DNA of 60,939 nucleotides from the IMG/VR virus record IMGVR_UViG_3300027980_000037, positions 1-60,939 of that record, one strand, 5' to 3'. Each line of letters starts with the position of its first letter. The stretch's first letter is position 1. Source of the DNA: a virus (taxonomy: Duplodnaviria > Caudoviricetes). Under the pieces are notes generated by a model, which was given only the letters and a program-made list of their open reading frames with translations, had not been told where the DNA came from and did no database searches. A program made the translations under genes and the position numbers. Shown here in pieces: positions 1 through 60,939 of this stretch.

Positions 1-152
1 TTGTGTGAAATGTGCAATGTCGCACATTTGTTCTATTGGAGTAGAAGCATGACCACAATCACCAAACTCGACAAAAAATCCTGCAAAGCAATCCAGCAAC
101 CGATTGAAGATGCTGTCAATGCAGCCCTTGAGCCTTTCGGTCTGAAGGCGGT
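1..152. repeat. Terminal direct repeat / circular assembly overlap (copy 1)
   Basis: 1-152 equals 60788-60939 except one mismatch (A26 vs C60813). Confidence 0.95.
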
Positions 153-3519: not shown

Positions 3520-3600
3520 ATGAAAACTAGTATCAAGTGGTTCAATGTTTTTGTATCAATCGCAATCGGTGTGACCTTCATTGTTTTTATTATTCCATGA
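3520..3600 (+). CDS. 26-aa single-TM micropeptide MKTSIKWFNVFVSIAIGVTFIVFIIP
   Basis: GGAG RBS, ATG directly after upstream stop, hydrophobic; below the ORF-track size cut-off. Confidence 0.6.
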   Translation: MKTSIKWFNVFVSIAIGVTFIVFIIP

Positions 3601-3803
3601 TGGCGACAACTCCGAGGGGGCGGCTGCGGAGTGTCCTCTTGTCGGTAAATCTTCATGCAAGAAACCGGCGCAATAGACCAAGCCTTTATGCGGGTCGCCA
3701 TTTTTCCTACCTGGAAAACATGAGCCGTTGTAAATAAAGGTAAGCAGCCATAATGATCTGGCTGATGCTCCGAGACTAAGCCGGCTTTCGAGCCGGCTTT
3801 TTT
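3600..3803 (+). ncRNA. Candidate structured ncRNA with two potential pseudoknots
   Basis: Several complementary segments (see findings); ends at an intrinsic terminator. Confidence 0.45.
3778..3803 (+). terminator. Rho-independent terminator
   Basis: AAGCCGGCT-TTCG-AGCCGGCTT followed by T run. Confidence 0.85.
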
Positions 3804-3924: not shown

Positions 3925-3969
3925 CCAGTTAACGCTGGTGTGTTCTTTAACAATCTATGGAGACTACTT

Positions 3970-6547: not shown

Positions 6548-6846
6548 TCAGTGATATCCCAAGTCTTGAAACGAATACCGAAGTTAACCTGATCGACATA
6601 AAGCTCAGGATCGTCGTTAAACGGTTCGCCATTCTTTAGGTGGCTGATGTGTTCATACTCGACAAAGGTGTTCCACTTCATGTCCTGACGAACACGCAGC
6701 GTGAGTGTCGGGTTGTCACCACCATAGTCAGCAAACGTGCTACTTCCTACTTTGTGACCAACAGCCAGGTCAATTACCGGCGAACAAGCGCAACAGGTGA
6801 GTACCACAAAAACCAGAAAGTAGAATTTAATAGCTTCTCTGTTCAT
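6544..6846 (-). CDS. Putative exported/outer-membrane beta-strand protein
   Basis: Hydrophobic signal with Cys, amphipathic strands, EYEHISH, C-terminal NFGIRF. Confidence 0.55.
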   Translation of the reverse strand: MNREAIKFYFLVFVVLTCCACSPVIDLAVGHKVGSSTFADYGGDNPTLTLRVRQDMKWNTFVEYEHISHLKNGEPFNDDPELYVDQVNFGIRFKTWDITE

Positions 6847-11311: not shown

Positions 11312-11339
11312 TGAAAGTCTCCAATAAAAACCTCGATAA

Positions 11340-11390: not shown

Positions 11391-11425
11391 CATTCGCCCA
11401 CTTCCTACTTACCGGAGACTGAAAA

Positions 11426-22200: not shown

Positions 22201-25200
22201 TCCAGATCGCCCAGCTTGCCATTAGCTGCAGACTGCGCCCGCGCAAAATTCGGGGCTGCTTTGTTGAGCGCGGCAATGATGTTCTTAATGCCCGGGTCAG
22301 CTTCTTCAGCCATCAGGCTAAGGATTCGCTCGTTTCGGTATGCAGTCCAGAACACAGCCTGTTGCACTCGATCTGCAAGCTGCTTGGTCGGGCGACCGTC
22401 TTCGGTCATAAACGCTGCGCGCTCGGCCACCGGTATATTCTCGTTCATAAACTCAACCATGAACGGCATATTGCTGGCTGCTAACAGGTTGCCCTTATCA
22501 TCGGGGTTTAGCATCCCGATCATCTTTTCGCTTACAACATCTTTTGCTGCCTGTTCTGATGGCGAGAATGCTGCTTGCGCACTGACGTTACCTTCCTTGC
22601 CAAGATCTGCAAGTTCGGCATCAGACATTTCTTCTTGAATGACGCGAACAAGAACAGAGAATCCATAAACACTGTCTTTCTTGTCCTCGCCAAAATTAAA
22701 ACCGAACTGGCTCTCGTTTTTAATTATGTAATCGTGATACTCCTTTTGCAGCGCTTCGGTAGATTCGTTCTCGTCTTTACCGAAAGATGATTTGAACAAC
22801 ATCACACGACCGTTGCCGGAAACAACAACACCGTCTTTGGTTATCACGGGAGCGCCATCTTCGGCTGTTGTAGTAAAACCGACTCGCTCTGGCTGGAACT
22901 TCGATTTTGTTTCGTTTATCCATTGTTGTGTAGCGTCACGGCTGCGGTCACGTGGCTGCATTTCCTCTGGATAGTTTTTGTTCTTCTTGCCTGATATCAG
23001 GTTGCTTGCTACAAGGTCGCGAAGATCCCATATCTCCCACCTGGTACTAACCTTTCTTGAGCCAAAAAGAGTCTGCTGGTTGCTGCCTATGCCAGCCTTC
23101 ATTTCTTCTGAAGTAGAGTCAGAGCCAAAATTGTTAACACCAGAAAAAATTCCACGTGGGGCTGTCATTTGCGACTCTTGCCCACTGTCTATCCAATCTT
23201 TAAGCTCTGATATTTTTCCTTGATAAGATATGTTTTCACCACTCGGGTACATGGCTTTGTAGGCGCTCATTGCTGCTGCCTTACGGTTAAACCCGACTAG
23301 AACTTTAGTCTGAACGTAAGTCATTCCACCATCGTCAAGCTGGTCTACAAACCAAACCTTGTCAGACGTTTCAAGAGCATCGCCTATAATCACATCAATC
23401 TTCATGCGATCATGGCCCTTAGTGCCTTCGATGTTTCCGTAATGAGCCTTTAGGGTTTTACCGTATCTCTCACTCCCTTTCGGGTACTGCATACGCAATG
23501 TTAAGCCGGCTGCTTCCCACTCGATTGCGGGCTGCTCAAAGTTACCTTCAGTGCCGGCGTTCTGTTGTGACGTTGTAGGCTCTGGCTTGTCGTTCTCGGG
23601 GTTGAATGGAGAGGCTGCAGCGGCTGCATTAACAGAGCCTTTTTCCACATTCTGAATCTTGCCGGGTTCACGCTTAATGCCGCCAGTATCATTAGCGTCA
23701 TAATTGCTGTATTCAAAGTTGTCGCCAGCAACGTACTGCTTGCCATCGACATCAATTACCCTGCCGCTGTAATCCCACGGGCGACGAGCGCCTTTCTTGG
23801 TGTTGCTGGTTTCACCGAATCCTTCGATATCAGTGATGGTTTCTGCGTTCCAATCTTCAATTGGTGTCAACTCTGTATAGTGGACACTACGAATTTCATC
23901 TTGGTGTTCAATAACACGGCGAATAGCAACCATCGTGCCATCAATGTTCATAACCTTTACGGTTTCCAGCTTGCCGTGAAACATTTCAGCGTGTGGTCTA
24001 TCTGAATACTGCTCATACTCTGGCAGTTGATCCAAGTACGGTTGGATATCTGGAATACCAGCTTCTACGTCATAGGTCTTATTTAGCGCCATGTTGCCGC
24101 GCTTGTAGGTAACAAACATCTGAAAGTCTGTGTCTGTGTTTCCTGCAAGCTGTTCAAGAACCCACTGCGCGCTAACCTGTATCTGCGCGTTCTTGCGAAG
24201 CACTTTGTTGTAACGAGTGACAATGATAACGCCTTCAGCCTGATCCGAATGAATCACGAAGGCGATATCATCATTACTGAAAGTGCCGGCTTCTTTTTTG
24301 TTCTTCTTATTGGCTTTGAAGTCATTGTGTTTCTTTAGCCGGCGAAGCCATGAGTTACCGTCAGTGTCTTCTTCACTGTAGTACGGGCGCATTGCATCAA
24401 CTACTGCATTAGCGACCTCTACTTTAAACTCGTCAACAGTCTGTTCAGTAGGGGCTTTGGTTTCCGGTGCGAAAATTTCTTTTGAAGTTCCCCAACCACC
24501 ATCGCGATTCCACTCGTAGTTGCGAGCGACCACATATTTCTTCTTACCGTGCTGAACCCTAGTGCCTGTCCAATCACCACGCTGGCGACCTTTGTCGTAC
24601 TGCTCTATTTGCTGACCTACATCAATTGTTTCGCCTTCATAATCTTCCTGCGGAACAAGCTCCACATAGCGAATTTGTTTCGGGCCTCTCTCGCCCTGAT
24701 GTGTAATACCAGCCGCCGTAAACAAGCGACCACCAACCTCGACCGGCTTGTTTATCTTGCCCGTAGACAGCTTCACAGCATCGTGAGTCTTGTCGAGCTT
24801 CTTAACATCATTCGGTTCTAGCTTAGGTACGCTGTTATCAGCCTTCGTTTTTGCTTTAGGCTTGGCTTTAGGCTTGGCTTTCGGTTTCGGCGCGGCTTCG
24901 GTCTTGTTGTCTTCAGATGGGGTGAATGCCGCAACCAAAGCATCAGCTTCAGCTTTAGTTATCGGGCCGGTGTCTTTGCGAGCAATGCGAGTACCTGGCG
25001 ACATTTTCGCTTTCTTTGTATCGCCCCCCAATACATCTGCTTTTGTTTGCTCAATATGGCGACCGGTTTTAACCCATCCTTCCGGCAGCTCGCCTGTCAC
25101 ATCTGACTCAACATCAAGGTAAATCAATCCGGCGTTATACATATCGCCAGACATGGAAGTTTTGATTCCAGCTTTATTGAGAGAAACAACACCTTGTTTT

Positions 25201-27293
25201 ACTTTCGGGTTTACTACGTCACCCATAAAGCCGGTGAAATCTGTACCCTGCGCTTCTATGCTCGCAAGGTCTTTATCCAAAGATTCTTGTTCTGACCGGG
25301 CTGCTTCCGGCAAACGACTGTAGTCGATGTAGCGACGAAGACTGCTGGTTGCTTTAGCTCCGTATGCAGTGAGATATGTTTGGAACTCACCTTCAATAAA
25401 GTCAGCTTCTTTTTTGACCTCTTTCTGTGCAGCAGCCAGCCGCTTCCTGCCGGCTTCACTGGTTGGTTCTTTGCCTGTTTTCGGGTCGAAGCCAGAAGCT
25501 ACGGCAGACTCAAGCTGCTCGATCTTCGTTCTGCTCGATAGCACGTTTGACATGACCGACTGATGGAAGATTTCATTCTTCTGCTGGCTGTCGGGCCATT
25601 CGCCGCCAGCCGCCGTGTAATCGGATTTAAGGCTTTCGTCAGGCGATGGGAAGCTCGTCACATAGTCATAGCCGCCGGAAGTGTCCGGTGCTGCCCCTGT
25701 GGGCGCTGTATCGGGCAGAGTGACCGTATCACCGTCTGGCTGGCTATCAGGCTCAGGTTCGGTGTCTGGCGGCTGTACCGTGTTCCCTGTGTCCACCTGT
25801 GGCGCTGTATCAGGCTGCGGGGTCATGGGGATATCATCATCAGGCTCGGGCTGAGTTTCGCTCTCAGGGGCTGATTCTGGCGCTGCCTCGGCTTCCGGCT
25901 GGTTAGCCGGCTGGTTAGCCGGCTGGAATGTCTCAGGGTTGCTCATAGCCCGCGTGGCGAGCTGTGTCAGCTCTGTCAGGGCTTTAGCTGCGGTTGTATC
26001 CGTATCCTTTGGATCTGATGCCCTGTTCATCACATCAGCAACTGGCGCTATATCCAGCCCCTGATTAGCGAAAACGCGGGTAACTTCCTTAAACTTCCTT
26101 GCTAGGGCTGCTTCTGCGACCTTATTCGACTTATACGAGGCTTCACGCTCGGATACGTTGACATCGAATGTGCCGAAGCCGACACCCATAGCACCGCCGG
26201 CAATAGCGCCGCCAACCATTTCGTCGACAACACCATCCCATGTATCCAGATCGAGGTCGATCCCCTGCATGGTGACGTTCTGGATTGCCCGGGAAGAACC
26301 GGACTGACCGGCTTCCTGTACTGCTTCAGAGAGAAAACCAGCGCCAGCACCGCGAAGGCGGTTTGAAGCCCATACGCCAGAACCACCAAGCACCTTACCC
26401 AACACAGAGCCAAGCGGAGCGCCAAGCAGGGCCGACACACCAGTAACCTTGCTGGCAGCACTCTTTGAAAGCTCGTTAGCTAGTGTGTGTGAGGCGTACT
26501 GTACGCGCTCCATCGGTGACAGTTCGGGGGCTGACTGAAAGATTTCTTGGAAGCGCGGGTTAGCCCACAGATCTTCGGGGTCTGATTCCATGACCTGTCT
26601 GTAGACTTCAGCACCGGCGGCTGTGCCTTCGACAGCACCCTCACCAATACCGAAACCGACACCACCAAGCATACCGTCGACGATCCGCAGCTTCTTAGCA
26701 GCTGCAGCGCCTTTGGCTACCGTAGCTGCTGATGCGCCGGCTTTTGAACCAGCCTTAACAGCTGCATCAAGGGTCGCTCTGCCGAATGGGTTAGCAAATA
26801 ACTGCAGACCTTTGGTGACTGCACCACCAGCACCCATACCAAGCATAGTGCCAGGTATCGAACTTGCGCCGGCAAGCCCGACCTTATGCAAGCTCCAATC
26901 GTCGATCTCCCACGAACCGTCAGGGTTTACCTTAGTCCAATCTCGGCTGATTTCGTGCAGGGCATCTGCAGACATACCGCTGTACCAATGGTCAACGGCA
27001 CTCGAAGCGGCATCTTCCAACGCAGAGCCAGCGTCTTCCATACCACCCATACGCATGAGCCAGCCCATGCCTTCGCCAATCTGAGCGAAGCCACCCATGA
27101 CAGCCCTTCCGTAGTCGGAAGCACCAATATCAGGATCGTCTGATTGTGAGGATATTTGGGAACTGTAAGTGCTGCTTAAATAATCATCGAGCGGGGAGCC
27201 GCCTGATATTTGTTGTCCAGCAGATTCTGTTTTAGCCGGCGCACCTTCGCCGCCATACTGCTGTTTCAAATAATCGTCTAATGGCGATGCCAT
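16251..27293 (-). CDS. Large polyvalent virion/ejected protein (PPase-like, ddrB-like ParB, JAB/RadC, MPTase-like, LPD38-like domains)
   Basis: 3680 aa; QPRDRSR...GAPV...SGNGR (ParB-like); HNHPGG...SDSD (JAB); HEIIGHYG (metallopeptidase); RIPKPFEVG (LPD38-like). Confidence 0.85.
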   Translation of the reverse strand: MASPLDDYLKQQYGGEGAPAKTESAGQQISGGSPLDDYLSSTYSSQISSQSDDPDIGASDYGRAVMGGFAQIGEGMGWLMRMGGMEDAGSALEDAASSAVDHWYSGMSADALHEISRDWTKVNPDGSWEIDDWSLHKVGLAGASSIPGTMLGMGAGGAVTKGLQLFANPFGRATLDAAVKAGSKAGASAATVAKGAAAAKKLRIVDGMLGGVGFGIGEGAVEGTAAGAEVYRQVMESDPEDLWANPRFQEIFQSAPELSPMERVQYASHTLANELSKSAASKVTGVSALLGAPLGSVLGKVLGGSGVWASNRLRGAGAGFLSEAVQEAGQSGSSRAIQNVTMQGIDLDLDTWDGVVDEMVGGAIAGGAMGVGFGTFDVNVSEREASYKSNKVAEAALARKFKEVTRVFANQGLDIAPVADVMNRASDPKDTDTTAAKALTELTQLATRAMSNPETFQPANQPANQPEAEAAPESAPESETQPEPDDDIPMTPQPDTAPQVDTGNTVQPPDTEPEPDSQPDGDTVTLPDTAPTGAAPDTSGGYDYVTSFPSPDESLKSDYTAAGGEWPDSQQKNEIFHQSVMSNVLSSRTKIEQLESAVASGFDPKTGKEPTSEAGRKRLAAAQKEVKKEADFIEGEFQTYLTAYGAKATSSLRRYIDYSRLPEAARSEQESLDKDLASIEAQGTDFTGFMGDVVNPKVKQGVVSLNKAGIKTSMSGDMYNAGLIYLDVESDVTGELPEGWVKTGRHIEQTKADVLGGDTKKAKMSPGTRIARKDTGPITKAEADALVAAFTPSEDNKTEAAPKPKAKPKAKPKAKTKADNSVPKLEPNDVKKLDKTHDAVKLSTGKINKPVEVGGRLFTAAGITHQGERGPKQIRYVELVPQEDYEGETIDVGQQIEQYDKGRQRGDWTGTRVQHGKKKYVVARNYEWNRDGGWGTSKEIFAPETKAPTEQTVDEFKVEVANAVVDAMRPYYSEEDTDGNSWLRRLKKHNDFKANKKNKKEAGTFSNDDIAFVIHSDQAEGVIIVTRYNKVLRKNAQIQVSAQWVLEQLAGNTDTDFQMFVTYKRGNMALNKTYDVEAGIPDIQPYLDQLPEYEQYSDRPHAEMFHGKLETVKVMNIDGTMVAIRRVIEHQDEIRSVHYTELTPIEDWNAETITDIEGFGETSNTKKGARRPWDYSGRVIDVDGKQYVAGDNFEYSNYDANDTGGIKREPGKIQNVEKGSVNAAAAASPFNPENDKPEPTTSQQNAGTEGNFEQPAIEWEAAGLTLRMQYPKGSERYGKTLKAHYGNIEGTKGHDRMKIDVIIGDALETSDKVWFVDQLDDGGMTYVQTKVLVGFNRKAAAMSAYKAMYPSGENISYQGKISELKDWIDSGQESQMTAPRGIFSGVNNFGSDSTSEEMKAGIGSNQQTLFGSRKVSTRWEIWDLRDLVASNLISGKKNKNYPEEMQPRDRSRDATQQWINETKSKFQPERVGFTTTAEDGAPVITKDGVVVSGNGRVMLFKSSFGKDENESTEALQKEYHDYIIKNESQFGFNFGEDKKDSVYGFSVLVRVIQEEMSDAELADLGKEGNVSAQAAFSPSEQAAKDVVSEKMIGMLNPDDKGNLLAASNMPFMVEFMNENIPVAERAAFMTEDGRPTKQLADRVQQAVFWTAYRNERILSLMAEEADPGIKNIIAALNKAAPNFARAQSAANGKLGDLDAVTPLTDAIEAIRSAKGAGLTVEEFLAQRDAFTEIDPTADRFARFLDANMRSGQRMGSALSHLAERINNEISKGSTEDIFGSEPASLDDLLSATNDYMKEQWGDAPKGKQNQLFSKRPVSRVSLAEGDIVSRIWYVDSLMHPVGPDGQFQQVNGNTFLYSSPDEISKVGGEVYAIDISNLNLSQFTVSPAKTKAAYPAKIRRDHILSKTEVYAILNKPETKPQPVPSAPPAAKKPTIIKPEKGTPATLYQQPVGNAVQSMIKYPHETVDTAQQAADIFHAVIGQKSHEVLLGLITDKNNKPLFVVRLSVGGISATTMYSEVFFPAVMSDPNGVNFWMAHNHPGGITTQSDSDRKLARSINLSLTQTGLNFKGSIVVARGSKYTFFHPGSGVDQSKREVERPQETGNEETIPLIERRFVGEVEEVPPAKINSAEDIEAWVQENLDGQEGILMLNQRAMITGFLPYDLDEAGLLRRGDMETGAPLIMRELGKAGANRIVLVSNRENYRTLNGVADNIKRLLNRLDMQFTDWINNGKTVRRTGGRGALPDTRAHKFLSAGTEQVEEGLTVEQVDMFLSPFKSQFGGVVDIEVVQSNSDLPFDVEPSDIIEGVYLEGTNKVYMVADNLRNADDVARVASHEIIGHYGLEKLPEFNDVLGAVKSMARSGNKRVADAWKEAELRNPNENNDVLAKETLAILTERGNNNIGILARARVAMRQALRRIGFNQEITEEEVDALIIRAARDLTKANMDYQQTIMSASQTATLENPDAFRDEISKAMEEIYEEYGPSTDAERINPVFSKGNVVEMSMPALSQTDRLFLEGAKNPAAMLELQKFIEDPMDTDALDSFIFETIKAARFIDADAQQGDIEIYPDRDYIENEREADIADTIDLISLAMEDIVLGRFVRNQTKYKSADEALIDLSRRMTTPAGRPFKPRFSKRYEDRHEPVGQHIDRFLSMLTPHNSFLGLIELKSFLKTPSGANREALLEQVRKDLIFQYTSKYQPKYKKHNPRNIDGLNKAMILIDDAFDTVASNLKIGTVKEFRDITKAFINKKYGNTRNMYSKRATGGDRMEALTGKYLAKPQEDYTLRDRMRIWFRNMTNWDWRAIRQNIIDNAESLRALEVDTFGQTLDAAYSPYKAVLATRNIRSVMTYVMIGGIPQLKDGSFQPKAGRKGIIEIFRPLTDHKDGNLLHLWELYAAAKRAKQLMNEKNKDGTEREKLFDPEDIEEILELKDKYLDENGESIFEKVHKDWMKMNSEALDLLEKSGVLDAELRKTFINNMYVPFHRAMESIEFDEYSKGEGRKPRGMRGGVSNVNSGIMRLKGSERKVGHVFENMVMNMTYMMDAAYRNHAMQRVALAYDGGALEKIDLETEAVQISLQQMASALRKAGLIVGNTPAPGQVDTFGMQVVQRMTPEQRDQWLKVFRKVAPAGDNIVTVLQNGQRVYYRVHDPLLLRTLQGVGTQRFDNIMGLFGGSKRLLTTMVTTDPAFMMANFVRDTLAAWVQSDVGMKPFVDSVKGMKSAWNEDEDMLTLMAAGAGGGGFYDTNSDDVRKLIAKKVPRGHVDSFMNSIVSPSGMWRFWRRVGNASEQANRVAVYKRVRGAGGSVAEAAYQARDVLNFTMVGDNPTVMALVATVPFFNARLQGLYRLSRGAMDNPKAFATKGFILAAMSLALLYRNWDNDDYERLPEWDKDLYWHIWIGRDMANDNKGEHFRIPKPFEVGAMFATVPERIWRKTAGRDDLNLMKERGLSMMFETFAFNPVPQLIKPIWEQKSNLDFFTNSPIVGFSEQGRIPEAQYNPWTSEFMREMAKAMPDSAPAWLRSPQRLEHALRGYFGATGMYILDAADYMTRGAFGYPDKTAKDIRDYPVVKRFWRNPNPRYTKYANQMYGMLEESNDIYRTINAYKKQGLGKEAKALYKDKVGVLAARNNLNKMLKEIRKVNDRIRQIEYNNVMNSDEKKAAIDRLQSRKNKVMSRVEAFAHLF

Positions 27294-54065: not shown

Positions 54066-54498
54066 TTTTTTATCCGAAATTTTGTATACGGCTGTTCGGA
54101 CTCTTACCGCAGCCGCCTAACGCAACCCAGCCCATTGCTGCTGCTCTCTGGAACTGGCGAGTTCCACTACAACCGAATATATCCGCATTTATAGCCAGTG
54201 TCCACATTTGGGGGGAGAAAACCGAAAAAATGGGCGTGGGTGTTATGGGGAACCCTTATTTAGTAAGAGAGAAGGTTCATTCGATTCCGATTGGCTGGCG
54301 GGTTTTTGCGGGCTGCTTCGGTGGGGCTGTTGTTCACACTGCATGGCGCTCTGCTGCTGCTGGCTGCTCTGCTGCTGCTGATGTGATGCCACAGTATGCA
54401 CATTGTCGATCGGTGTCGCTGTGGCTGCTCTCGTTGGCTGTGGTTGGTGGATGCCAGGTCGAATGAGTGATGCCAGGTCGATGCTGTGACTTCAGGGC

Positions 54499-54823: not shown

Positions 54824-55144
54824 CTAGTACCCCGCAGCTTCAGCACGATAGTCGCGCTGGCGATGGCTGATATCTTGAAAATCAGGATAGCCGTACTCAT
54901 TAAGCGGCATTGGATTGGTGGCAACGACCTGATGCAGCGTCGAAGACAGGCGACCATCGCAATCACTGCCATCACGCTCGATAAATCGCGTCAGCTCCTG
55001 CCCATCGTCAGACAGCTCCCAAGTAATCCGCGAGGCACTGTAGCCCTCGTCGGTACGCTCGAAAGTAGAATGCTCAAGGCTTTGCCCCGGCTCGATTGTT
55101 AGCGTTACCACGCCATTGTTGTAGGTTTTAAATCTCATGCTCAT
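54824..55144 (-). CDS. Conserved phage early hypothetical protein
   Basis: TDEGY...DCDGR...QRDY.AE.AGY. Confidence 0.7.
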   Translation of the reverse strand: MSMRFKTYNNGVVTLTIEPGQSLEHSTFERTDEGYSASRITWELSDDGQELTRFIERDGSDCDGRLSSTLHQVVATNPMPLNEYGYPDFQDISHRQRDYRAEAAGY

Positions 55145-55148
55145 ACCC

Positions 55149-55232
55149 CTATGGTAATAACAGAATGATTAGAAGCACTGCCAGCACGAAGCTGGCAGTA
55201 CCCCAATGGATTACAGGCGGGCGCTTGCTCAT
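55149..55232 (-). CDS. 27-aa single-TM micropeptide
   Basis: MSKRPPVIHWGTASFVLAVLLIILLLP; ATGA overlap; AAGGA RBS. Confidence 0.55.
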   Translation of the reverse strand: MSKRPPVIHWGTASFVLAVLLIILLLP

Positions 55233-55561
55233 GCGCTTTCCTTGATGTGCCAAGTAATGCCCTTGCTAGACATTGCCTCGCCCAACGTCAGGTCACACTC
55301 GGTATCAGTAATAACGCCGGAGAATTGGTCAAGCTCAGAGGCTGGCAGATATCCCAGCTCAGGAAAGCCTAATCCAAGATCGCAAAGCCCGAACAGCATC
55401 GTAGCGCCATTGATAAGCTCGGCGTGTACGATGTGCCATTCCGCTGATGCTACTTCAAAGCGCACAATGACCGGACGGTCATAGTTAGCCACCTCGGGAT
55501 TGTCTGCAGCGCCAGCACAAAATAGCTGAGTTGAGAGTGAATCGGATATGTATGATTTCAT
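55229..55561 (-). CDS. DUF2958-like protein
   Basis: PV.VRF...W...FGLCDLG.G.PELGY. Confidence 0.75.
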   Translation of the reverse strand: MKSYISDSLSTQLFCAGAADNPEVANYDRPVIVRFEVASAEWHIVHAELINGATMLFGLCDLGLGFPELGYLPASELDQFSGVITDTECDLTLGEAMSSKGITWHIKESA

Positions 55562-55633
55562 TGTGTCAGTCTCCAAGTAGCCCACACCACACGGGCCTTA
55601 TACACACTTTAATTTATGTGCAGCTACTGTCAA
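55562..55633 (-). promoter_or_regulatory. Early cassette promoter, GUGGU hairpin and extended RBS
   Basis: TTGACA-16-TAAAGT; GCCCGT-GTGGT-GTGGGC; TGGAGACTGA. Confidence 0.75.
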
Positions 55634-55751
55634 GTGGTTTATTTTCGGAGATTCCGGGCAGCCTGGGCGATGGTGTGACATCACATATATCTTACTTCGG
55701 GGCTGTAGCTCAACGGTTCGCTTCCTTTTTGCTGTGGCTCAACGGTCAGGC

Positions 55752-55778
55752 AAAAAAAAGCCCCTGACTAGCAGGGGC
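55752..55778 (-). terminator. Rho-independent terminator
   Basis: GCCCCTG-loop-CAGGGGC then T8 on minus strand. Confidence 0.85.
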
Positions 55779-55795
55779 GAGAGACTGCGACAAGT

Positions 55796-56257
55796 TCAGA
55801 ACTCGCCACGCATTGCCAGCGACACTGTGCTGTCGGGCGTGACAATGAAATGATCGAGAACTCGCACATCTATCAGTTCCATAGCATCACGGATACGGCG
55901 GGTAATGCTTTTATCTGATGCTGATGGCTCAGGCACACCGGACGGATGATTGTGTGCCAGCACGATAGCGGCAGCGTTCAGGTCGATAGCACTGCGTACC
56001 AGCTCACGCGGGTATACCGTGGTCGCATCAATAGTGCCTTTGAATTCTTCGCGGAACTCAAGAACACGGTGGCGATTGTCGAGATACAGCACACCAAACA
56101 CTTCCTGCTTACGGTGGGCGAGATTCGCCTTTAAGAAATCACGGCTGGCTGCTGGTGATTCGATTGCAACGCCCTTCTCGATGCCGCAAAGCTTTAAGTA
56201 CGCTGCTGCGACTTCTTCGATATTGGCTGCTTGTCCTGCTTTGTTGTATAGCTTCAT
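55796..56257 (-). CDS. radC: RadC-like JAB/MPN domain protein
   Basis: QEVF..LYLD...GTID...VYPRE...HNHPSG...PS.SD...VLDH. Confidence 0.9.
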   Translation of the reverse strand: MKLYNKAGQAANIEEVAAAYLKLCGIEKGVAIESPAASRDFLKANLAHRKQEVFGVLYLDNRHRVLEFREEFKGTIDATTVYPRELVRSAIDLNAAAIVLAHNHPSGVPEPSASDKSITRRIRDAMELIDVRVLDHFIVTPDSTVSLAMRGEF

Positions 56258-56328
56258 TGTCAGTCTCCAAAATGCCCGCTACCACAGCGGGGTTATAAAC
56301 ATAGTATCAATTGTGGATAGTGTTGCAA
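56258..56328 (-). promoter_or_regulatory. Early cassette promoter, operator, GUGGU hairpin and extended RBS
   Basis: TTGCAA-16-(TGa)TACTAT; CCCGCT-GTGGT-AGCGGG; TGGAGACTGA. Confidence 0.8.
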
Positions 56329-56460
56329 GTTCTTTTTTTCAGGTAGTGGTAGCCAGGACGATTCAGTGACGCGAGCCTTCCTTCTCACATTGTGGCAGTA
56401 GCTCAACGGTGGGTCAGTCGCTCAACGGTCTACCTCTTGGCTGTAGCTCAACCGCCAGAC

Positions 56461-56499
56461 AAAAGAATGCCCCGCTACCGTTGGGGGCGATAGCGGGGC
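56461..56499 (-). terminator. Rho-independent terminator
   Basis: GCCCCGCTA...TAGCGGGGC then ATTCTTTT on minus strand. Confidence 0.7.
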
Positions 56500-56529
56500 G
56501 TGGGGTTGCCGCAGGACGCGGCAGGGAGA

Positions 56530-57327
56530 CTAACTGTTTGCAGCTTTCGGCGTGATATCTTCGAGCCTGTGCAGTTCTTCAATCAGGCTTTCTTTCTGCT
56601 CTGGTGTGCATTCAAGGATATGCCGCGCCAGTTCATCAGTGCTGATATCGCCGCTGTCGAGTATCCGGCGCAAGGCGAACTCACTGTCACATTCGATAGC
56701 GACACAGGCTTCAGTCAGATTGTTATGAGTATCAACGGCCTGTTGACTGCCGCCAGCAAACAACACCAGCCGCACAACATACTTCGCATCCGGCAATACC
56801 TTCCCACCAGCGTCTGTGATATCACGCTTGTCCATATCGCTCAGTGATTCAGCGGTGCATTCTTCGATGTAGTATTCACCTGAAGCCAGCATGAATACCG
56901 ATTCCGGCGGCTTGAACTCGGGATAGTGGTTTGTGTCGGGGTCGATGCCGTACTTCTCGTACAGCTTCGGCAGGGCTTCGGGCGGGTATCCACCAACCTG
57001 CGTCCATTCGTAAGTACGGGTATCCAGCACGAAGAAACCTGCATCCCCATGACTGCGTTTTTCCTGATATTCAGTCATTAACAGTTCTGATACCAGTGGT
57101 GTTTTACCGCCAAACACACCGAGGCTCATATTGTCGGCATAGCCGCAGTGCTGGTGACAAACACCTACCAGCCGCGCATAAGCATAGGCAAAGTCATTGC
57201 CCCGGCTCTCCATCAGCTTGCGGTGAATGTCCAGAATCATCGGCACAGCGTAACCGCCCCAATGCAGATATATTTCCTGACTGACGTTTTCACCATCAGT
57301 TACTACGATTATTGCTCTATCACCCAT
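56530..57327 (-). CDS. Conserved phage early hypothetical protein
   Basis: MGDRA.I...IYLHWGG...YA.ARL. Confidence 0.75.
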   Translation of the reverse strand: MGDRAIIVVTDGENVSQEIYLHWGGYAVPMILDIHRKLMESRGNDFAYAYARLVGVCHQHCGYADNMSLGVFGGKTPLVSELLMTEYQEKRSHGDAGFFVLDTRTYEWTQVGGYPPEALPKLYEKYGIDPDTNHYPEFKPPESVFMLASGEYYIEECTAESLSDMDKRDITDAGGKVLPDAKYVVRLVLFAGGSQQAVDTHNNLTEACVAIECDSEFALRRILDSGDISTDELARHILECTPEQKESLIEELHRLEDITPKAANS

Positions 57328-57353
57328 GAGTATTCTCCAGTTAAGGGTTGTGG

Positions 57354-57611
57354 TTAAAATTCTTCCATCATTGAAGCAGCACCATCTAGGTCACTGCCAA
57401 GAACGTCATACAATGAACCAGCCTTCATTGCTGTATCAGGGTTATGAGGCTCGTTGGTGCATTTGCTGTTAGGGTCACTATTGAACTCGTTGCCGAAAAC
57501 ACCGCAGCCATTCTTTCTGAATAGCTTGTTTGCTTGCTCAATAGGAAGGTCTACATCATGCAGGGAGTCGATATCCCACGGCTCGCCACAGTGTCTGCAA
57601 TAAATATCCAT
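57354..57611 (-). CDS. Conserved phage early hypothetical protein
   Basis: MDIYC..CGEPWD...D.DG.A. Confidence 0.75.
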   Translation of the reverse strand: MDIYCRHCGEPWDIDSLHDVDLPIEQANKLFRKNGCGVFGNEFNSDPNSKCTNEPHNPDTAMKAGSLYDVLGSDLDGAASMMEEF

Positions 57612-57682
57612 TATCAGTCTCCATTTATGCCCGCCACCACGGCGGGATAGCTTCAGATTACCAAATGTGGACACCATTGCAA
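57612..57682 (-). promoter_or_regulatory. Early cassette promoter, operator, GUGGU hairpin and extended RBS
   Basis: TTGCAA-16-(TGg)TAATCT; CCCGCC-GTGGT-GGCGGG; ATGGAGACTGATA. Confidence 0.8.
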
Positions 57683-57825
57683 GCGTTATTTTTGAGCAGG
57701 TTTCAGCCGGCAACCCAGAGCCAGCAATGACTATCACTGGCGTAGGTCAACAGTAGATCAGTCGTGGGTCAACAGCCCCGGGGTCGGCAAGGATACCTGG
57801 TATATCAGTAGTGGCAGATGTTGAC

Positions 57826-57838
57826 TAAGTGATTGATT
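57826..57838 (-). promoter_or_regulatory. IHF consensus site just downstream of terS
   Basis: AATCAATCACTTA fits WATCAANNNNTTR. Confidence 0.55.
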
Positions 57839-57856
57839 CGCAAGGTCTTGCGAAAA

Positions 57857-58648
57857 TCAGTCCACATTTGAATCGTGGTCAACCGTCACGGGCCGGCGAC
57901 CACCCATTGTTTTGCGTCGTTGAACCGCCCTTTCCATAGCGTCGGCGGTGTTCACTATCACGTTCACATCACTGGTGTCGTTCAACAGCCCGATGGATTT
58001 AGCCAATGAATCCAACGCTTTCTGCGGGTCAACTGTCTTCAGCTTGATAACGGTGGTGCGTATCGTGTCGCCGGAGTCTGTCACAATCTCTTTCACGGTT
58101 AGATCAACAGACCGTAAGCGGCGCTGTACCTCTACTGGCAGCTTGGTTACGTCTGTAATCATTAGCTGCCCGTTATCGTCGGACTCGAAATAGTCCACCA
58201 CATTAGCCTGAGCGTGGTTGTACCAGTCGCGCATGATGGCTTCGGCGGCTATCTTCGCGGAATCTGCTCGCCGGCTAACTTTTTTGTGAATCGAGTCTAG
58301 GAATTGGCTTATCTGTGGGTGACGCAGGACACGCCACGCCTCTGTATAGCACGTAGCGCGTGAGGCTTTGGGATACACAGTGGCATAGGCTTCAGCGGCA
58401 TTGTGACCGTTTGACAGGTAGTGTTGAGCTACTTCGGTGTATTTAGCCAGAGTATCTGGTCTTAGCTGTCTTGTTGTACTGGCTTGAATGGTGTTAGGTG
58501 GTAGGGCTTTGTTGTTTACAGGCGGGGGCAGGGCTTCGCCGGCTTCACTAGCGTCACGCTTTGCTATACGAACATTGGTTTCATCCTCGAATTTTGCAAT
58601 AAGGTCTTCAAGGCTTGATTTAGAAGTGTTTCGGCGCTGTTGGCTCAT
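57857..58648 (-). CDS. terS: Terminase small subunit
   Basis: Y....NA..AY...A.R.LR.P.I HTH; K...D.QKALD.LAK..G. Confidence 0.8.
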   Translation of the reverse strand: MSQQRRNTSKSSLEDLIAKFEDETNVRIAKRDASEAGEALPPPVNNKALPPNTIQASTTRQLRPDTLAKYTEVAQHYLSNGHNAAEAYATVYPKASRATCYTEAWRVLRHPQISQFLDSIHKKVSRRADSAKIAAEAIMRDWYNHAQANVVDYFESDDNGQLMITDVTKLPVEVQRRLRSVDLTVKEIVTDSGDTIRTTVIKLKTVDPQKALDSLAKSIGLLNDTSDVNVIVNTADAMERAVQRRKTMGGRRPVTVDHDSNVD

Positions 58649-58772
58649 GGTAAAGACGTAGCCCTCGCACTGGTTAGGTGGTCAACGGGCTTCGCCGGGT
58701 GTGCCGCGTTAAGGGTTGCGACACTGCACAGGTAGGGGTATGAGTTATGGAGACTGATACTGTCTGTGCGTG
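58649..58772 (-). ncRNA. Structured terS leader / candidate anti-RBS small RNA
   Basis: Hairpin GCACAG/CTGTGC with loop containing TATCAGTCTCCATA and CTCATACCCCTA, antisense to early-gene initiation regions. Confidence 0.6.
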
Positions 58773-58777
58773 AAGCC

Positions 58778-58806
58778 ATTATACACCAATTTCGGATAGT
58801 TGTGAC
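58778..58806 (-). promoter_or_regulatory. Promoter for the terS leader
   Basis: GTCACA-17-TATAAT. Confidence 0.6.
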
Positions 58807-59357
58807 TCTAATTTCTGTCGGTATGCCGGCAGTTCGTTTTCCTGCTCTGTGTCGGTAGGGTAACGGGCGTGATATTTCTCTGCAAGTGACATAACAGTTT
58901 GCCACGCGGTGTCACATTGTTCCTGTGACCAAGCGGCCTTCTTCCTAAGATTTTGGAAGCCGATATGAACCATTAGCTTCTTACCCTCAGTCTCGAATAG
59001 CCCAAACAGGATTTTCGGCGCTTCAATCTGCAGGGTTTCCGGCTTGGGCGTGAATTCGTCATGCTGTGTAGATCTGCCATAGCCCAGCAGCTTCGGGATT
59101 GATGGCGGGTAGTCGCTGCCTTCCAGTGCGGCAACATGAACGGCCCGGACAATCTGGTGCGGCTGCATGGCTTCAATCTGTGCCATAGCACTAGGGTTAT
59201 CTTCCGGTACTTCGCCATTGTTGCTGATCCATTGGTTGCCGTACATACCACCAAGATGCAGCCAAAGCCATTGGCTCTGCGTGAAGCCGGCGGGAATTTC
59301 GGTTTCGATACCTGGCGCTTTCATCTGAACTTCCCGCTTATCCCTATCTTCAGCCAT
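58779..59357 (-). CDS. Replication-associated protein (lambda P-like position)
   Basis: LW......YG..W....G...PP....; downstream of initiator. Confidence 0.55.
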   Translation of the reverse strand: MAEDRDKREVQMKAPGIETEIPAGFTQSQWLWLHLGGMYGNQWISNNGEVPEDNPSAMAQIEAMQPHQIVRAVHVAALEGSDYPPSIPKLLGYGRSTQHDEFTPKPETLQIEAPKILFGLFETEGKKLMVHIGFQNLRKKAAWSQEQCDTAWQTVMSLAEKYHARYPTDTEQENELPAYRQKLESQLSEIGV

Positions 59358-59629
59358 TCAGGGTGTTTATCTTTTTCACGTGGCTTCGCCTGTTCTGTGT
59401 TGTGTTTTTCCCTAGCAAACAGGAGTTTTGCTATCGACAGCTTATGGTTCAGTTTGTACGCAAGGTTATTATCATCAAGGTTTGACCAATGGTTGATAAC
59501 CAGACATTCGGGAATTCTGACCATAGGTAGTGTCTCGGGTATAGGCTTGAGTTCGTAATACTCGCCTTCCTTCAGCCCCAGCATTTCAGCCTGATATTTG
59601 TACAGGTACAGTCTGGTCTGGAAACTCAT
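59321..59629 (-). CDS. Hypothetical protein
   Basis: ATGA-coupled ORF. Confidence 0.55.
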   Translation of the reverse strand: MSFQTRLYLYKYQAEMLGLKEGEYYELKPIPETLPMVRIPECLVINHWSNLDDNNLAYKLNHKLSIAKLLFAREKHNTEQAKPREKDKHPEWLKIGISGKFR

Positions 59630-60684
59630 TGCAGCCGCCTTTGCCTACTGGCTATCTGGCTGGCTGCTCCATTCTGTAGCCGGCTTTGAGCATTGGGCTT
59701 CTGTTTTTCTGCCGGTGGCGGTTCAATGCTGTATTCCTCGTTGTACCGGCTGTTGAAGAATGTGGCGGCTTGCAGGGTTTTATCAGTACCCAGCTTTCCA
59801 GAAACTAGGCAGTGCTGGTAGTAGATGCTGGTGTATTCCATCAGGGCTTCCAGCGTGACATTGCCGGCTTGTATCTCACGCCTAGCAAATCGCTCTGCAT
59901 CATTCCAGCGTTGGCCGCCATAGCGTTTTGGGTAGATAGGGCGAAGTTTTGCCCACATTTCTTGCCACGCTTGTTCCGTAATCTTTTGAACCTTGCCTTT
60001 GCCTTTGCCTCTGCCTCTGCTTGTCGTGACATTTTGGGACATTTGCGTGACATTTTTGCAGGATTCATCTAAACAATTGATTCCAGTCCCGTTTTTGTTG
60101 TGCCAGTTTTTATGGCAACTGCAACAAAGCCAACGAACCTCAAGGGCTTTTGCGTAATCGTCGTGATGCGCTGCAATACTGTCAGAATCATCACCACAAT
60201 CTTCACAAAACTTGGGTCTGGTTAAAATACCACCAGCTATAGCCATAGCAACCAACTCATGTGCAGCTTGTTTGGTTCTAGGCACTTCCGCTGGCTTAGA
60301 TACACTGCCTTTAGCCCTTTGTCGGCGTTTGCGTATCCTGTTTGCCTCACGCTTTTCAGCTTGGTTTTGAATCTCGCGGTAAGTTTGGTAGTTAACAACT
60401 CGGTAGCCGCAATTGTCACCACATCCCGGTCTAATTGGAATAATCCTGCGCCCTTCCTCGGCCTCGTTCTTACTCTGTGGGTCTGGTGACATCAATGTGT
60501 CCATGTGACCGCGGAGACTGTCCAGATCGTGCGGGTAGTTGATTAGCCGGTGCAGTGATTCGAGCGATTTATCCACCAGCCCTTCACGGTCTGCCAGTAC
60601 CAGCAAATCCATGAAAACGTGCCTTGTGCCGTAGTCGGCGGCAAGGCTTGAGAACATGATGTCCTCGAAAATCTTTACATACAT
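59626..60684 (-). CDS. Replication initiator (O/DnaT-like) with inserted HNH-like Zn domain
   Basis: Y.K.F..I..SS N-terminus, V.NY..YR, R.RKRRQR, CEDC...HHDDY...WLC..CH, YPKR, QA.TFF. Confidence 0.7.
   Translation of the reverse strand: MYVKIFEDIMFSSLAADYGTRHVFMDLLVLADREGLVDKSLESLHRLINYPHDLDSLRGHMDTLMSPDPQSKNEAEEGRRIIPIRPGCGDNCGYRVVNYQTYREIQNQAEKREANRIRKRRQRAKGSVSKPAEVPRTKQAAHELVAMAIAGGILTRPKFCEDCGDDSDSIAAHHDDYAKALEVRWLCCSCHKNWHNKNGTGINCLDESCKNVTQMSQNVTTSRGRGKGKGKVQKITEQAWQEMWAKLRPIYPKRYGGQRWNDAERFARREIQAGNVTLEALMEYTSIYYQHCLVSGKLGTDKTLQAATFFNSRYNEEYSIEPPPAEKQKPNAQSRLQNGAASQIASRQRRLQ
60025..60057. repeat. Iteron-like GTGACATTT repeats (putative origin)
   Basis: CGTGACATTTT, GGGACATTT, CGTGACATTTTT inside the initiator; GCGTGACATT also at 59853 and 60751. 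Confidence 0.55.
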
Positions 60685-60762
60685 AGTAGTCAGTCTCCTT
60701 TAACCAATATCCTGATTTTACGCTGTTTTTCTGTTTTTGTCACTCAAATAGCGTGACATTGG

Positions 60763-60796
60763 TTGCATACTACACCAAATGTGGATATTGTGTGAA
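60763..60796. promoter_or_regulatory. Overlapping divergent promoters with central operator CCAAATGTGGATAT
   Basis: Plus strand TTGCAT-17-TATTGT; minus strand TTCACA-18-TAGTAT. Confidence 0.6.
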
Positions 60797-60939
60797 ATGT
60801 GCAATGTCGCACCTTTGTTCTATTGGAGTAGAAGCATGACCACAATCACCAAACTCGACAAAAAATCCTGCAAAGCAATCCAGCAACCGATTGAAGATGC
60901 TGTCAATGCAGCCCTTGAGCCTTTCGGTCTGAAGGCGGT
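60788..60939. repeat. Terminal direct repeat / circular assembly overlap (copy 2)
   Basis: Matches 1-152. Confidence 0.95.

What the first reader, a model, noticed from the sequence alone, without database searches (positions are those of the whole stretch)
58649..58806. Candidate multi-target anti-RBS RNA in the terS leader that could silence early genes
Seen: a minus-strand promoter (GTCACA-17-TATAAT, 58806-58778) would start an RNA reading ...GCACAG-acagtatcagtctccataactcatacccctac-CTGTGC..., a 6-bp stem presenting a 32-nt loop. The segment TATCAGTCTCCATA is the exact reverse complement of the initiation regions of seven genes: 57611 (ATGGAGACTGATA, 13 nt), radC 56257 and DUF2958-like 55561 (TGGAGACTGA, 10 nt), 3970 (TATGGAGACT, 10 nt), recT 11426 and initiator 60684 (GGAGACTGA, 9 nt), and 11311 (TGGAGACT, 8 nt). 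The adjacent segment CTCATACCCCTA is the exact 12-nt complement of the RBS plus start of gene 55144 (TAGGGGTATGAG). A second hairpin (GTGTCGC/GCGGCAC) also has a C/U-rich loop. Knowledge: bacterial sRNAs repress translation by pairing over the SD/AUG. Inference: when packaging transcription starts, this RNA blocks translation of early, recombination and replication operons together, acting as an RNA early-to-late switch. I do not recognise this as a described phage system.
Basis: partly seen in the sequence, partly recalled or inferred. Interest (0 to 1): 0.92.

Follow-up and report, generated by a model that had tools for sequence, protein, structure and literature searches.

The report
Anti-RBS loops in phage terS leader
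The short stretch in front of a phage packaging gene carries exposed RNA loops that match, as mirror images, the ribosome landing sites of the phage's early genes, and one distant relative shows the same with different letters, so it may be an RNA brake on early genes, although no expression data exist.

Summary
Observation confirmed; interpretation partly supported. GGAGACTGA occurs 6 times (0.32 expected): 5 as RBS, and once inverted in the terS leader. The leader is the top anti-TIR locus of 1872 windows. It beats its dinucleotide shuffles: 7 TIRs at 9 nt, reached by 1 of 20000; 7 of 78 TIRs at or below -6 kcal/mol after accessibility costs, reached by 2 of 246. A plain RNAduplex test showed nothing.

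New points:
- The promoter belongs to the phage's operator-bearing early promoter family, so it is not "late".
- The only syntenic relative, L002 (terS 42% identical), has unrelated leader letters. Yet its loops complement its own initiator RBS (10 nt) and the first gene after terS (8 nt). That is 3 of 9 TIRs, reached by 2 of 594 shuffles, and rank 1 of 348 windows.
- In both phages a 44/47-codon ORF spans the leader and overlaps both neighbours' stop and start. This is a rival or companion reading.

No RNA data, no terminator and only two phages. Functional anti-RBS pairing is about 0.45 likely. A discrete late-switch sRNA is unsupported.

The parts
58778..58806 (-). Promoter GTCACA-17-TATAAT, with a degenerate copy (TATCCGAAATTGG) of the phage's operator-like spacer motif TRTCCACATTTGG. 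The predicted transcription start is about 58771.
   Evidence: only promoter-like site in 57500-60000. (same architecture as the promoters at 60787, 57673, 56319, 11360 and 16186; closest to the initiator promoter). (L002 keeps AATyGGTGnTATnATG at the same junction).
58649..58771 (-). Predicted 123-nt structured, C-rich 5' leader of terS (three hairpins).
   Evidence: fold, z -3.43. (C 47 of 130 nt, G 27).
58726..58769 (-). Hairpin 1: a 6-bp stem with a 32-nt loop. An inner mini-helix leaves the CUCCAUA heptaloop unpaired.
   Evidence: unpaired probability of CUCCAUA 0.99-1.0.
58746..58759 (-). Anti-tag UAUCAGUCUCCAUA, complementary to the (U)GGAGACU(GA) ribosome-binding tag of seven promoter-proximal genes.
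58733..58744 (-). CUCAUACCCCUA, a 12-nt complement of the SD region of the gene at 55138/55144.
   Evidence: After a 9.6 kcal/mol target opening cost, the total is -6.9 kcal/mol.
58701..58724 (-). Hairpin 2 with the unpaired loop AACCCUUAAC.
   Evidence: loop unpaired probability 1.0. Only a weak 7-nt match to TIR 31509.
58645..58779 (-). 44-codon ORF spanning the whole spacer. Its ATG overlaps the TAA of the upstream gene (TAATG), and its TGA overlaps the terS ATG (ATGA).
   Evidence: Codon score is intermediate. Not in the protein collection. The L002 counterpart is 3556-3699, with ATGA at both ends.
57857..58648 (-). terS (small terminase). Its SD-like GAGGG lies 13 nt from the ATG.
   Evidence: PF03592 E 1.1e-10; phrog_51..
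57612..57624 (-). Target tag AUGGAGACUGAUA of the first gene after terS (ATG 57611).
   Evidence: total -12.8 kcal/mol.
56260..56269 (-). Target tag UGGAGACUGA of radC (ATG 56257).
   Evidence: -11.0.
55566..55575 (-). Target tag UGGAGACUGA of the DUF2958 gene (ATG 55561).
   Evidence: -9.4.
60690..60698 (-). Target tag GGAGACUGA of the replication initiator (ATG 60684). This is the first gene of the overlapping-ORF chain that ends in terS.
   Evidence: (-8.5).
11414..11422 (+).
   Evidence: -7.4. I did not run a family search on this gene.
3956..3965 (+). Target tag UAUGGAGACU (ATG 3970).
   Evidence: -9.5.
11316..11323 (-). Target tag UGGAGACU (ATG 11311, minus strand).
   Evidence: -3.9, weak.
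55140..55151 (-). UAGGGGUAUGAG, the SD region of the 104/106-aa gene.

Best explanation
What it is. The 123-130 nt in front of terS form a structured, C-rich RNA leader. Its exposed loops carry anti-Shine-Dalgarno sequences tailored to the extended ribosome-binding 'tag' of the phage's promoter-proximal early genes.

How it is made. The RNA arises in two ways:
- as the 5' UTR of a terS transcript started at about 58771 from a promoter of the phage's own operator-bearing family, here with a perfect -10 and a degenerate operator;
- as an internal part of the initiator-to-terS polycistronic mRNA.

How it probably works. The loop CUCCAUA and its flanks nucleate 9-13-bp duplexes over the SD and spacer of the tagged mRNAs. 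This can happen in trans, or in cis for the initiator 1.9 kb upstream on the same mRNA. The duplex would occlude 30S binding and so damp or shut off translation of these genes.

What is shown:
- the complementarity and its statistical excess;
- predicted accessibility of the loops;
- membership of the promoter in the family;
- recurrence, with different letters, in one distant syntenic phage.

What is inferred:
- that the RNA is made;
- that pairing occurs in vivo;
- that the effect is repression, rather than the early mRNAs acting on terS;
- the timing.

In the read-through mRNA the same stretch is probably translated as a 44-codon bridge ORF. That would melt the loops, so the regulatory form would be the promoter-derived untranslated leader.
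For: - The inverted tag is unique. 5 of 6 GGAGACTGA copies are RBS in gene sense, and the sixth is this inverted one.
- Local excess over shuffles:
  - 7 of 79 TIRs at 9 nt: 1 of 20000 shuffles.
  - Accessibility-corrected helices: 7 of 78 TIRs at or below -6 kcal/mol, 2 of 246 shuffles. Sum of the best 6: 0 of 246.
- The locus ranks 1 of 1872 natural windows.
- The CUCCAUA loop is unpaired with probability about 1.0 in three transcript contexts.
- The promoter is one of a family of 6 with the operator motif in the spacer.
- Replication in L002:
  - Relatedness: terS 42% identical; the upstream protein is homologous at E 4e-10; the leader cannot be convincingly aligned.
  - Loop 1, ACUCCUGCAA, is the 10-nt complement of the initiator TIR.
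  - Loop 3, GCUCCAAG, is the 8-nt complement of the TIR of the first gene after terS.
  - 3 of 9 TIRs at or below -6 kcal/mol: 2 of 594 shuffles. Sum of the best 3: 1 of 594.
  - Rank 1 of 348 natural windows.
- The tag extends beyond what 16S pairing needs. It is shared by seven genes of unrelated function, which a common pairing partner would explain.
Against: - No RNA run holds the phage.
- No minus-strand intrinsic terminator follows the loops.
- Only two phages are available, so co-variation rests on one comparison.
- An unrestricted RNAduplex test shows no enrichment (131 of 300 shuffles as good).
- Genome-wide, one inverted 9-mer is expected about 0.16 times.
- In L002 the word GCAGGAG is over-represented generally: 10 copies against 1.72 expected, and 7 of the 9 sense copies lie inside genes. 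The loop is therefore not TIR-specific there.
- In L002 the runners-up among natural windows are close (-23.7 and -22.7 against -24.5).
- The k-mer test in L002 is only modest: 211 of 20000 at 8 nt and 684 of 20000 at 10 nt.
- The stretch is an open frame coupled to both neighbours, so ribosomes may cover it.
- Gene starts were called by my own crude SD-based script.
Confidence: 0.45

Rival explanations
1. Translational-coupling bridge only. The 130-nt stretch is a 44-codon ORF, or at least a translated spacer. It carries ribosomes from the upstream gene to terS within a chain of overlapping genes. Its RNA structure sequesters the terS start until ribosomes arrive. On this reading the complementarity to other RBSs is a chance by-product of C-rich sequence meeting a repeated RBS family.
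For: - Window chain: initiator-ATGA-102 aa-ATGA-X-TAATG-small ORF-ATGA-terS.
- L002 chain: initiator-ATGA-X-ATGA-small ORF-ATGA-terS.
- 13 of 60 same-strand junctions in the window are 4-nt overlaps.
- terS in the window has no well-spaced SD.
- The 5' end of the spacer pairs with the terS start (window) or with the terS SD (L002). Fold z-scores are -3.43 and -2.86.
- terS start unpaired probability is 0.47 in the read-through context against 0.98 in the promoter-derived RNA.
- Frame 0 has the best codon score of the three frames (-0.04 against -0.43 and -0.36).
Against: - The frame is open in 24% (window) and 47% (L002) of shuffles.
- In L002 the opposite strand is open across the spacer too.
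- The codon score lies below 99% of real in-frame segments.
- The two peptides share no similarity, and neither is in the protein collection.
- The ATG is formed by the end of the -10 hexamer plus G in both phages.
- This reading does not explain the excess of TIR complementarity in two phages.
- It is not exclusive of the best explanation.
Confidence: 0.3
2. A discrete late sRNA of about 60-125 nt, made when packaging genes switch on, silences early, recombination and replication operons as the early-to-late switch.
For: - Same complementarity evidence as above.
- The degenerate operator and perfect -10 could let this promoter escape the regulator of the early promoters (inference).
Against: - The promoter is of the early family.
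- No terminator or other 3'-end signal lies within the leader.
- terS is not adjacent to terL or the structural genes.
- terS sits in one overlapping-ORF chain with the initiator.
- No timing data exist.
Confidence: 0.1
3. A DNA-level or plus-strand element. Either the inverted tag is a protein-binding DNA site used in both orientations downstream of family promoters, or it is the RBS of a plus-strand small gene or antisense RNA.
For: - The tag lies downstream of a family promoter in all 8 cases.
- On the plus strand, AGGGG-8 nt-ATG(58748) and GGAG-7 nt-CTG(58760) / 13 nt-GTG(58766) look like initiation regions.
- A plus-strand terminator-like hairpin lies at 58815-58842.
Against: - No plus-strand promoter-like site in 57500-60000.
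- The plus-strand ORFs are 8 aa, or 30 aa running past the terminator-like site and antisense to the upstream gene.
- L002 has two different inverted words in its leader, each matching a different TIR. That would need two DNA-binding specificities but only one RNA.
Confidence: 0.07

Closest known systems
c4 antisense RNA of phages P1/P7 (immI operon)
   Same: Both are phage RNAs encoded upstream in the same operon and orientation as their target. Complementary sequences are thought to sit in loops and to pair around a ribosome-binding site to block translation. Sources: passages seen in PMC12197685 and PMC8198154. Citron & Schuster 1990 was seen only as a reference entry.
   Different: - c4 controls one operon (icd/ant) for immunity.
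- From recall, c4 is a processed 77-nt RNA.
- Here there is no Rfam hit of any kind.
- Here the RNA is a terS 5' leader or ORF.
- Up to eight dispersed genes share the target tag, and one (the initiator) lies upstream of the regulator.
Multi-target base-pairing sRNAs with C-rich seed loops that occlude SD sequences (RsaE/RoxS type, RNAIII hairpins; recalled, not from a call)
   Same: C/U-rich motifs are displayed in hairpin loops and pair with purine-rich SDs of several mRNAs.
   Different: - Those are stand-alone sRNAs with their own terminators, encoded by bacteria.
- Here there is no terminator and no Rfam match.
- Here the pairing extends 5-9 nt beyond the SD core into a phage-specific tag.
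T4 RegB endoribonuclease and RegA translational repressor
   Same: Both are phage devices that inactivate many early mRNAs together, by acting at their translation initiation regions. RegB cuts GGAG in an extended motif, GGAGRAYARAA (PMC3014915, passages seen).
   Different: These are proteins, not an RNA. I did not search the window for a RegA or RegB homologue. Here the recognition would be by base pairing.
Translationally coupled overlapping genes (ATGA/TAATG junctions) with long-range RNA structure masking a downstream start, as in RNA phage MS2 (recalled)
   Same: Overlapping stop and start at both ends of the spacer. The 5' end of the spacer pairs with the terS initiation region.
   Different: The bridge ORF has no conserved peptide. 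It also carries the anti-tag loops.

Membership tests
Rfam C4 antisense RNA family and any other curated RNA family | Match to a curated covariance model. | tested here: not met
   cmscan of 57500-60000 at E<=1 gave 0 hits. The whole window at gathering score gave 0 hits.
Trans-encoded base-pairing sRNA | Own promoter. | tested here: met
   The promoter-like site 58806-58778 shares the architecture and operator-like spacer of five other promoters of this phage. This is prediction only.
Trans-encoded base-pairing sRNA | Rho-independent terminator giving a discrete short RNA. | tested here: not met
   No minus-strand terminator-like site between 58771 and the terS stop, other than a 5-bp stem at 57878-57862.
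Trans-encoded base-pairing sRNA | Accessible seed complementary to the TIRs of several mRNAs, above chance. | tested here: met
   A plain RNAduplex test was negative.
Trans-encoded base-pairing sRNA | Seed and target co-vary in relatives. | tested here: inconclusive
   Positive in the single syntenic relative L002. No other relative with this synteny was found.
Trans-encoded base-pairing sRNA | RNA detected; repression shown. | not testable with these tools
   No RNA run is listed. No bench data.
Translationally coupled small gene | Start overlaps the upstream stop, and stop overlaps the downstream start. | tested here: met
   TAATG and ATGA in the window; ATGA and ATGA in L002.
Translationally coupled small gene | Coding signature or conserved peptide. 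| tested here: inconclusive
   - Codon score -0.04, between coding (0.305 +/- 0.122) and off-frame (-0.509 +/- 0.252).
- No similarity between the two peptides.
- Neither peptide is in the protein collection.
- Open by chance in 24% and 47% of shuffles.
Small terminase (Terminase_2) gene downstream | Pfam PF03592 above the curated cut-off. | tested here: met
   42.7 bits against a cut-off of 26.1. phrog_51 at 2e-15.

The most novel reading that the evidence does not exclude
A phage mRNA leader acts as a multi-headed anti-Shine-Dalgarno regulator. Its loops co-evolve with an extended SD 'address tag' placed on the first gene behind each early promoter, including the replication initiator of its own operon. 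One untranslated 5' UTR would thereby throttle a whole early regulon. Translation of the same stretch as a bridge ORF in the polycistronic mRNA would switch the regulator off. The design would be conserved across divergent marine-sediment phages with no sequence conservation of the RNA itself.
Probability: 0.3. Interest if true: 0.82.

Novelty: new variant of a known kind. Interest (0 to 1): 0.62.

Why it matters
If real, this would be an RNA counterpart of T4 RegB/RegA. A single base-pairing element would recognise a shared 'tag' in the ribosome-binding sites of early genes and so control a phage regulon after transcription.

It would also explain why seven unrelated genes keep an SD extended by ACU(GA), beyond what 16S pairing needs.

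It would add a case in which the same 130 nt serve as promoter-proximal 5' UTR, coupling ORF and regulator.

The hypothesis is directly testable with reporter fusions and compensatory mutations, without needing the unknown host. If it fails, the locus is still a clean example of a conserved bridge ORF that couples terS to the replication operon.

Tried and rejected
- Known RNA families: none. tRNA or tmRNA: none.
- Close relatives:
  - blastn and tblastn of the region and of terS against 50,697 phage records gave no match.
  - terL finds 251 records, all below 60% identity.
  - terS word search found only itself among 689 candidates.
  - Cluster mates are near-identical.
  - The exhaustive HMMER search gave 527 hits at E<=0.001, but only one above 40% identity (P0006, 44%).
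- Scans of viral contigs:
  - With terS, P0006, P0008 and alignment A4: nothing.
  - With P0007: one weak locus, L003, not syntenic.
  - With an operator-plus-minus-10 pattern: nothing.
- Scans of genome contigs: A4 found nothing. The initiator alignment found L009.
- The initiator alignment in viral contigs found L004-L008. None of L003-L009 has the upstream protein next to the initiator, and none of L004-L009 has terS there (tblastn; HMM). All were dropped from the leader comparison, which therefore rests on 1 relative (L002) of 8 loci fetched.
- No RNA holder is listed for the phage. Two DNA runs hold it. Their contigs show no variant in 55000-60812 and one C>A at 60813.
- Plain RNAduplex energies: no enrichment. 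I judged this test uninformative, because shuffles also reach about -27 kcal/mol through long interior loops.
- Plus-strand small gene or type I toxin-like reading: rejected. There is no plus-strand promoter, and the ORF runs past the terminator-like site.
- Pairing between the GUGGU hairpin loops of the early leaders and ACCAC in the leader: only 5 nt, at chance level, not pursued.
- Pac-site reading: not testable here.
- Literature:
  - Two full-text searches turned up no description of a terS-leader anti-RBS RNA. That is two searches only, not proof of absence.
  - I read passages of PMC3014915, PMC8198154 and PMC12197685 through 'find'.
  - I did not ask for supplements.

Full report
**Setting**

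The window is a whole phage-like contig. Bases 1-152 repeat at 60788-60939, and it is an IMG/VR virus record.

Around the finding all genes lie on the minus strand:
- replication initiator, 60684-59626 (phrog hits);
- a 102-aa ORF;
- a protein of unknown function, X, at 59357/59324-58779;
- a 130-nt gap, 58778-58649;
- terS, 58648-57857 (PF03592);
- three promoter-leader cassettes (an 85-aa gene, radC, a DUF2958 gene).

terL lies 8.6 kb further on, at 49226-47709. The 'terS leader' therefore sits inside the early/replication block, not at the head of a late operon.

**Observation**

GGAGACTGA occurs six times against 0.32 expected. Five copies precede start codons in gene sense. The sixth, at 58749-57 on the plus strand, is the inverted copy in the leader.

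With flanks, the leader 14-mer UAUCAGUCUCCAUA pairs perfectly with 8-13 nt before seven starts. The neighbouring 12-mer pairs with the SD region of the gene at 55138/55144.

The fold contains the two hairpins described (-44 kcal/mol, z -3.43). It leaves CUCCAUA as an apical heptaloop with unpaired probability about 1.0 in three transcript contexts.

**Is it more than chance?**

- Against 20000 dinucleotide shuffles of the leader, the observed 7 / 5 / 2 TIRs (of 79) hit at 9 / 10 / 12 nt are reached 1 / 0 / 2 times.
- I also scored contiguous helices of at least 7 bp, adding opening energies for both RNAs.
  - 7 of 78 TIRs score at or below -6 kcal/mol (2 of 246 shuffles).
  - 5 score at or below -8 (1 of 246).
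  - The sum of the best six is -58.5 against -32.7 +/- 6.6 (0 of 246).
- Among 1872 natural 130-nt windows on both strands, with their own nearby TIRs excluded, this locus ranks first. The next non-trivial window is a T-run matching A-rich spacers.

Two cautions apply.
- The seven tags are one family, so one hit brings many. An inverted 9-mer somewhere in 61 kb is expected about 0.16 times.
- Unrestricted RNAduplex energies show no enrichment.

My estimate of the genome-wide chance level for the window alone is about 0.01-0.06, before counting its position.

**The promoter**

The -35/-10 spacer of the predicted promoter contains TATCCGAAATTGG.

I confirmed TRTCCACATTTG in the spacers of promoters at 60787, 57673, 56319, 11360 and 16186. 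The leader promoter has the same layout and is most similar to the initiator promoter.

So the promoter is credible, but it belongs to the early family. It differs by three changes in the operator core and by a perfect TATAAT. Whether that makes it escape the regulator is inference. At the same junction L002 keeps AATyGGTGnTATnATG, which reads as an extended -10, TGcTATCAT.

**Relatives**

The phage is isolated.
- There is no DNA or terS match among 50,697 phage records.
- Only near-identical cluster mates exist.
- The nearest terS is 44% identical.

One metagenome contig, L002, carries that terS with the same gene order: initiator, X homologue (E 4e-10), a 136-nt spacer, terS. Six further loci share only the initiator N-domain and have no terS nearby, so they were left out.

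**The co-variation test in L002**

The L002 spacer is not convincingly alignable to the window's beyond the junction. It is again C-rich (60 C of 136 nt) and again folds into three hairpins (z -2.86).
- Its first hairpin loop contains ACUCCUGCAA. This is the exact 10-nt complement of UUGCAGGAGU, 8 nt before the initiator ATG.
- The heptaloop of its third hairpin, GCUCCAA(G), complements CUUGGAGC before the first gene after terS.
- CUCCUGC also matches the TIR at 6759.

With the same scoring as for the window:
- 3 of 9 TIRs fall at or below -6 kcal/mol (2 of 594 shuffles);
- the sum of the best three is -24.5 against -9.4 +/- 4.8 (1 of 594);
- the leader ranks first of 348 natural windows.

Weaknesses of the L002 evidence:
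- the runners-up are close (-23.7 and -22.7);
- the exact-word test is modest (211 of 20000 at 8 nt; 684 of 20000 at 10 nt);
- GCAGGAG is generally over-represented in L002 (10 against 1.72);
- gene starts come from my own crude caller.

Even so, the same a-priori hypothesis passes in an independent, diverged genome with different letters. The targets are also the same two classes of gene: the initiator, and the first gene after terS.

The gap is exactly an ORF.
- In the window, ATG 58779-77 overlaps the TAA of X (TAATG), and the frame runs 44 codons to a TGA that overlaps the terS ATG (ATGA).
- In L002 a 47-codon frame does the same, with ATGA at both ends.
- In both phages, every junction from the initiator to terS is such an overlap.
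- 13 of 60 same-strand junctions in the window are 4-nt overlaps.
- terS in the window lacks a well-spaced SD.
- In both phages the 5' end of the spacer pairs with the terS initiation region.

Against a real protein:
- the frame is open in 24% and 47% of shuffles;
- the codon score is intermediate;
- the peptides are unrelated and uncatalogued;
- the ATG is simply the end of the -10 hexamer plus G.

I read this as a probable bridge ORF whose translation matters, rather than its product.

It does not exclude the anti-RBS reading. A transcript from about 58771 lacks that ATG, so its leader would be untranslated and folded, with the terS start open (unpaired 0.98 against 0.47 in the read-through context).

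**Mechanism, committed**

Most likely (0.45), the loops of the untranslated leader pair over the SD and spacer of the tagged early mRNAs and lower their translation. For the initiator this could also happen in cis on the long mRNA.
- Shown: complementarity, statistics, predicted accessibility, promoter family, and one co-varying relative.
- Inferred: expression, pairing in vivo, sign of the effect, and timing.

The 'late switch by a discrete sRNA' version gets 0.1. Bridge ORF or coupling spacer with chance complementarity gets 0.3. DNA-site or plus-strand readings get 0.07. The rest is unknown.

**Comparison with known systems**

The closest is the P1/P7 c4 RNA. It is encoded upstream in the same operon and is thought to use loop sequences to pair around a ribosome-binding site (passages in PMC12197685 and PMC8198154). 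This element is not a member of that family or of any Rfam family, and it would address up to eight dispersed genes.

Functionally it parallels T4 RegB/RegA, which act on many early initiation regions through an extended GGAG motif (PMC3014915), but with RNA in place of protein.

Two literature searches found no description of such a terS-leader element. This is not an exhaustive check.

**Verdict**

- Novelty: a new variant of a known kind (RBS-occluding base-pairing RNA).
- Interest is 0.62. The design is unusual and cleanly testable, but it rests on two genomes and no expression data.

Noticed in passing
window 58645-58779 (-); L002 3556-3699 (+): A 44/47-codon ORF spans the terS leader, with stop/start overlaps at both ends. 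It is part of an unbroken chain of overlapping ORFs from the replication initiator to terS in both phages.
   Followed up: yes
window 60787, 58798, 57673, 56319, 11360 (-); 16186, 54199 (+): An operator-like word TRTCCACATTTG(G) sits in the -35/-10 spacer of a family of promoters. The copy at 58798, in front of the terS leader, has three core changes. The copy at 54199 has no obvious -10.
   Followed up: partly
window 57646-57612, 56291-56258, 55596-55562 (-): Three promoter-leader cassettes share a 5'-proximal hairpin with a GUGGU-containing loop, followed by the UGGAGACUGA tag. A terminator and 2-3 boxes ACCGTTGAGCTACAGCC precede the radC and DUF2958 promoters.
   Followed up: partly
window 55690-55717, 56383-56410, 56428-56455 (+): The repeat family D5 looks like a tRNA D-arm (GTAGCTCAACGGT) on the plus strand. 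ARAGORN and Rfam find no tRNA, so these are more likely protein-binding boxes.
   Followed up: partly
window 1-152 and 60788-60939: A 152-nt terminal direct repeat (99% identical; the C/A difference at 60813 is also seen in run contigs). The contig is probably a complete circularly assembled or terminally redundant genome, although IMG/VR classes it as linear and 73% complete.
   Followed up: no
window 58815-58842 (+): A plus-strand terminator-like hairpin (CTGTCGG-TATG-CCGGCAG plus a T-rich tail) lies just upstream of the leader promoter, inside the 3' end of gene X. It could stop antisense transcription.
   Followed up: no
window 58717-58708 and 57352-57343 (-): The 10-nt loop of leader hairpin 2, AACCCTTAAC, recurs in the same sense directly upstream of the SD of the 265-aa gene (ATG 57327). 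This is about chance level by my estimate.
   Followed up: no
window 56531-56525 (-) and 60519-60513 (-): Two further inverted 7-mers, AGUCUCC, occur in mRNA sense. One overlaps the stop codon of the 265-aa gene just before a terminator. The other is inside the initiator gene. The 7-mer count is at the chance level.
   Followed up: no
L002, whole locus: GCAGGAG occurs 10 times against 1.72 expected. Nine copies are in mRNA sense, and the single inverted copy is in the terS leader loop.
   Followed up: partly
window 16251-27293 (-): A single 3680-aa ORF sits at the end of the structural block. I did not analyse it.
   Followed up: no
window 59994-60021 and 60590-60621 (runs X1, X2): Other contigs of the same two DNA runs align to short conserved pieces of the initiator gene. 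A related phage therefore co-occurs with this one.
   Followed up: no
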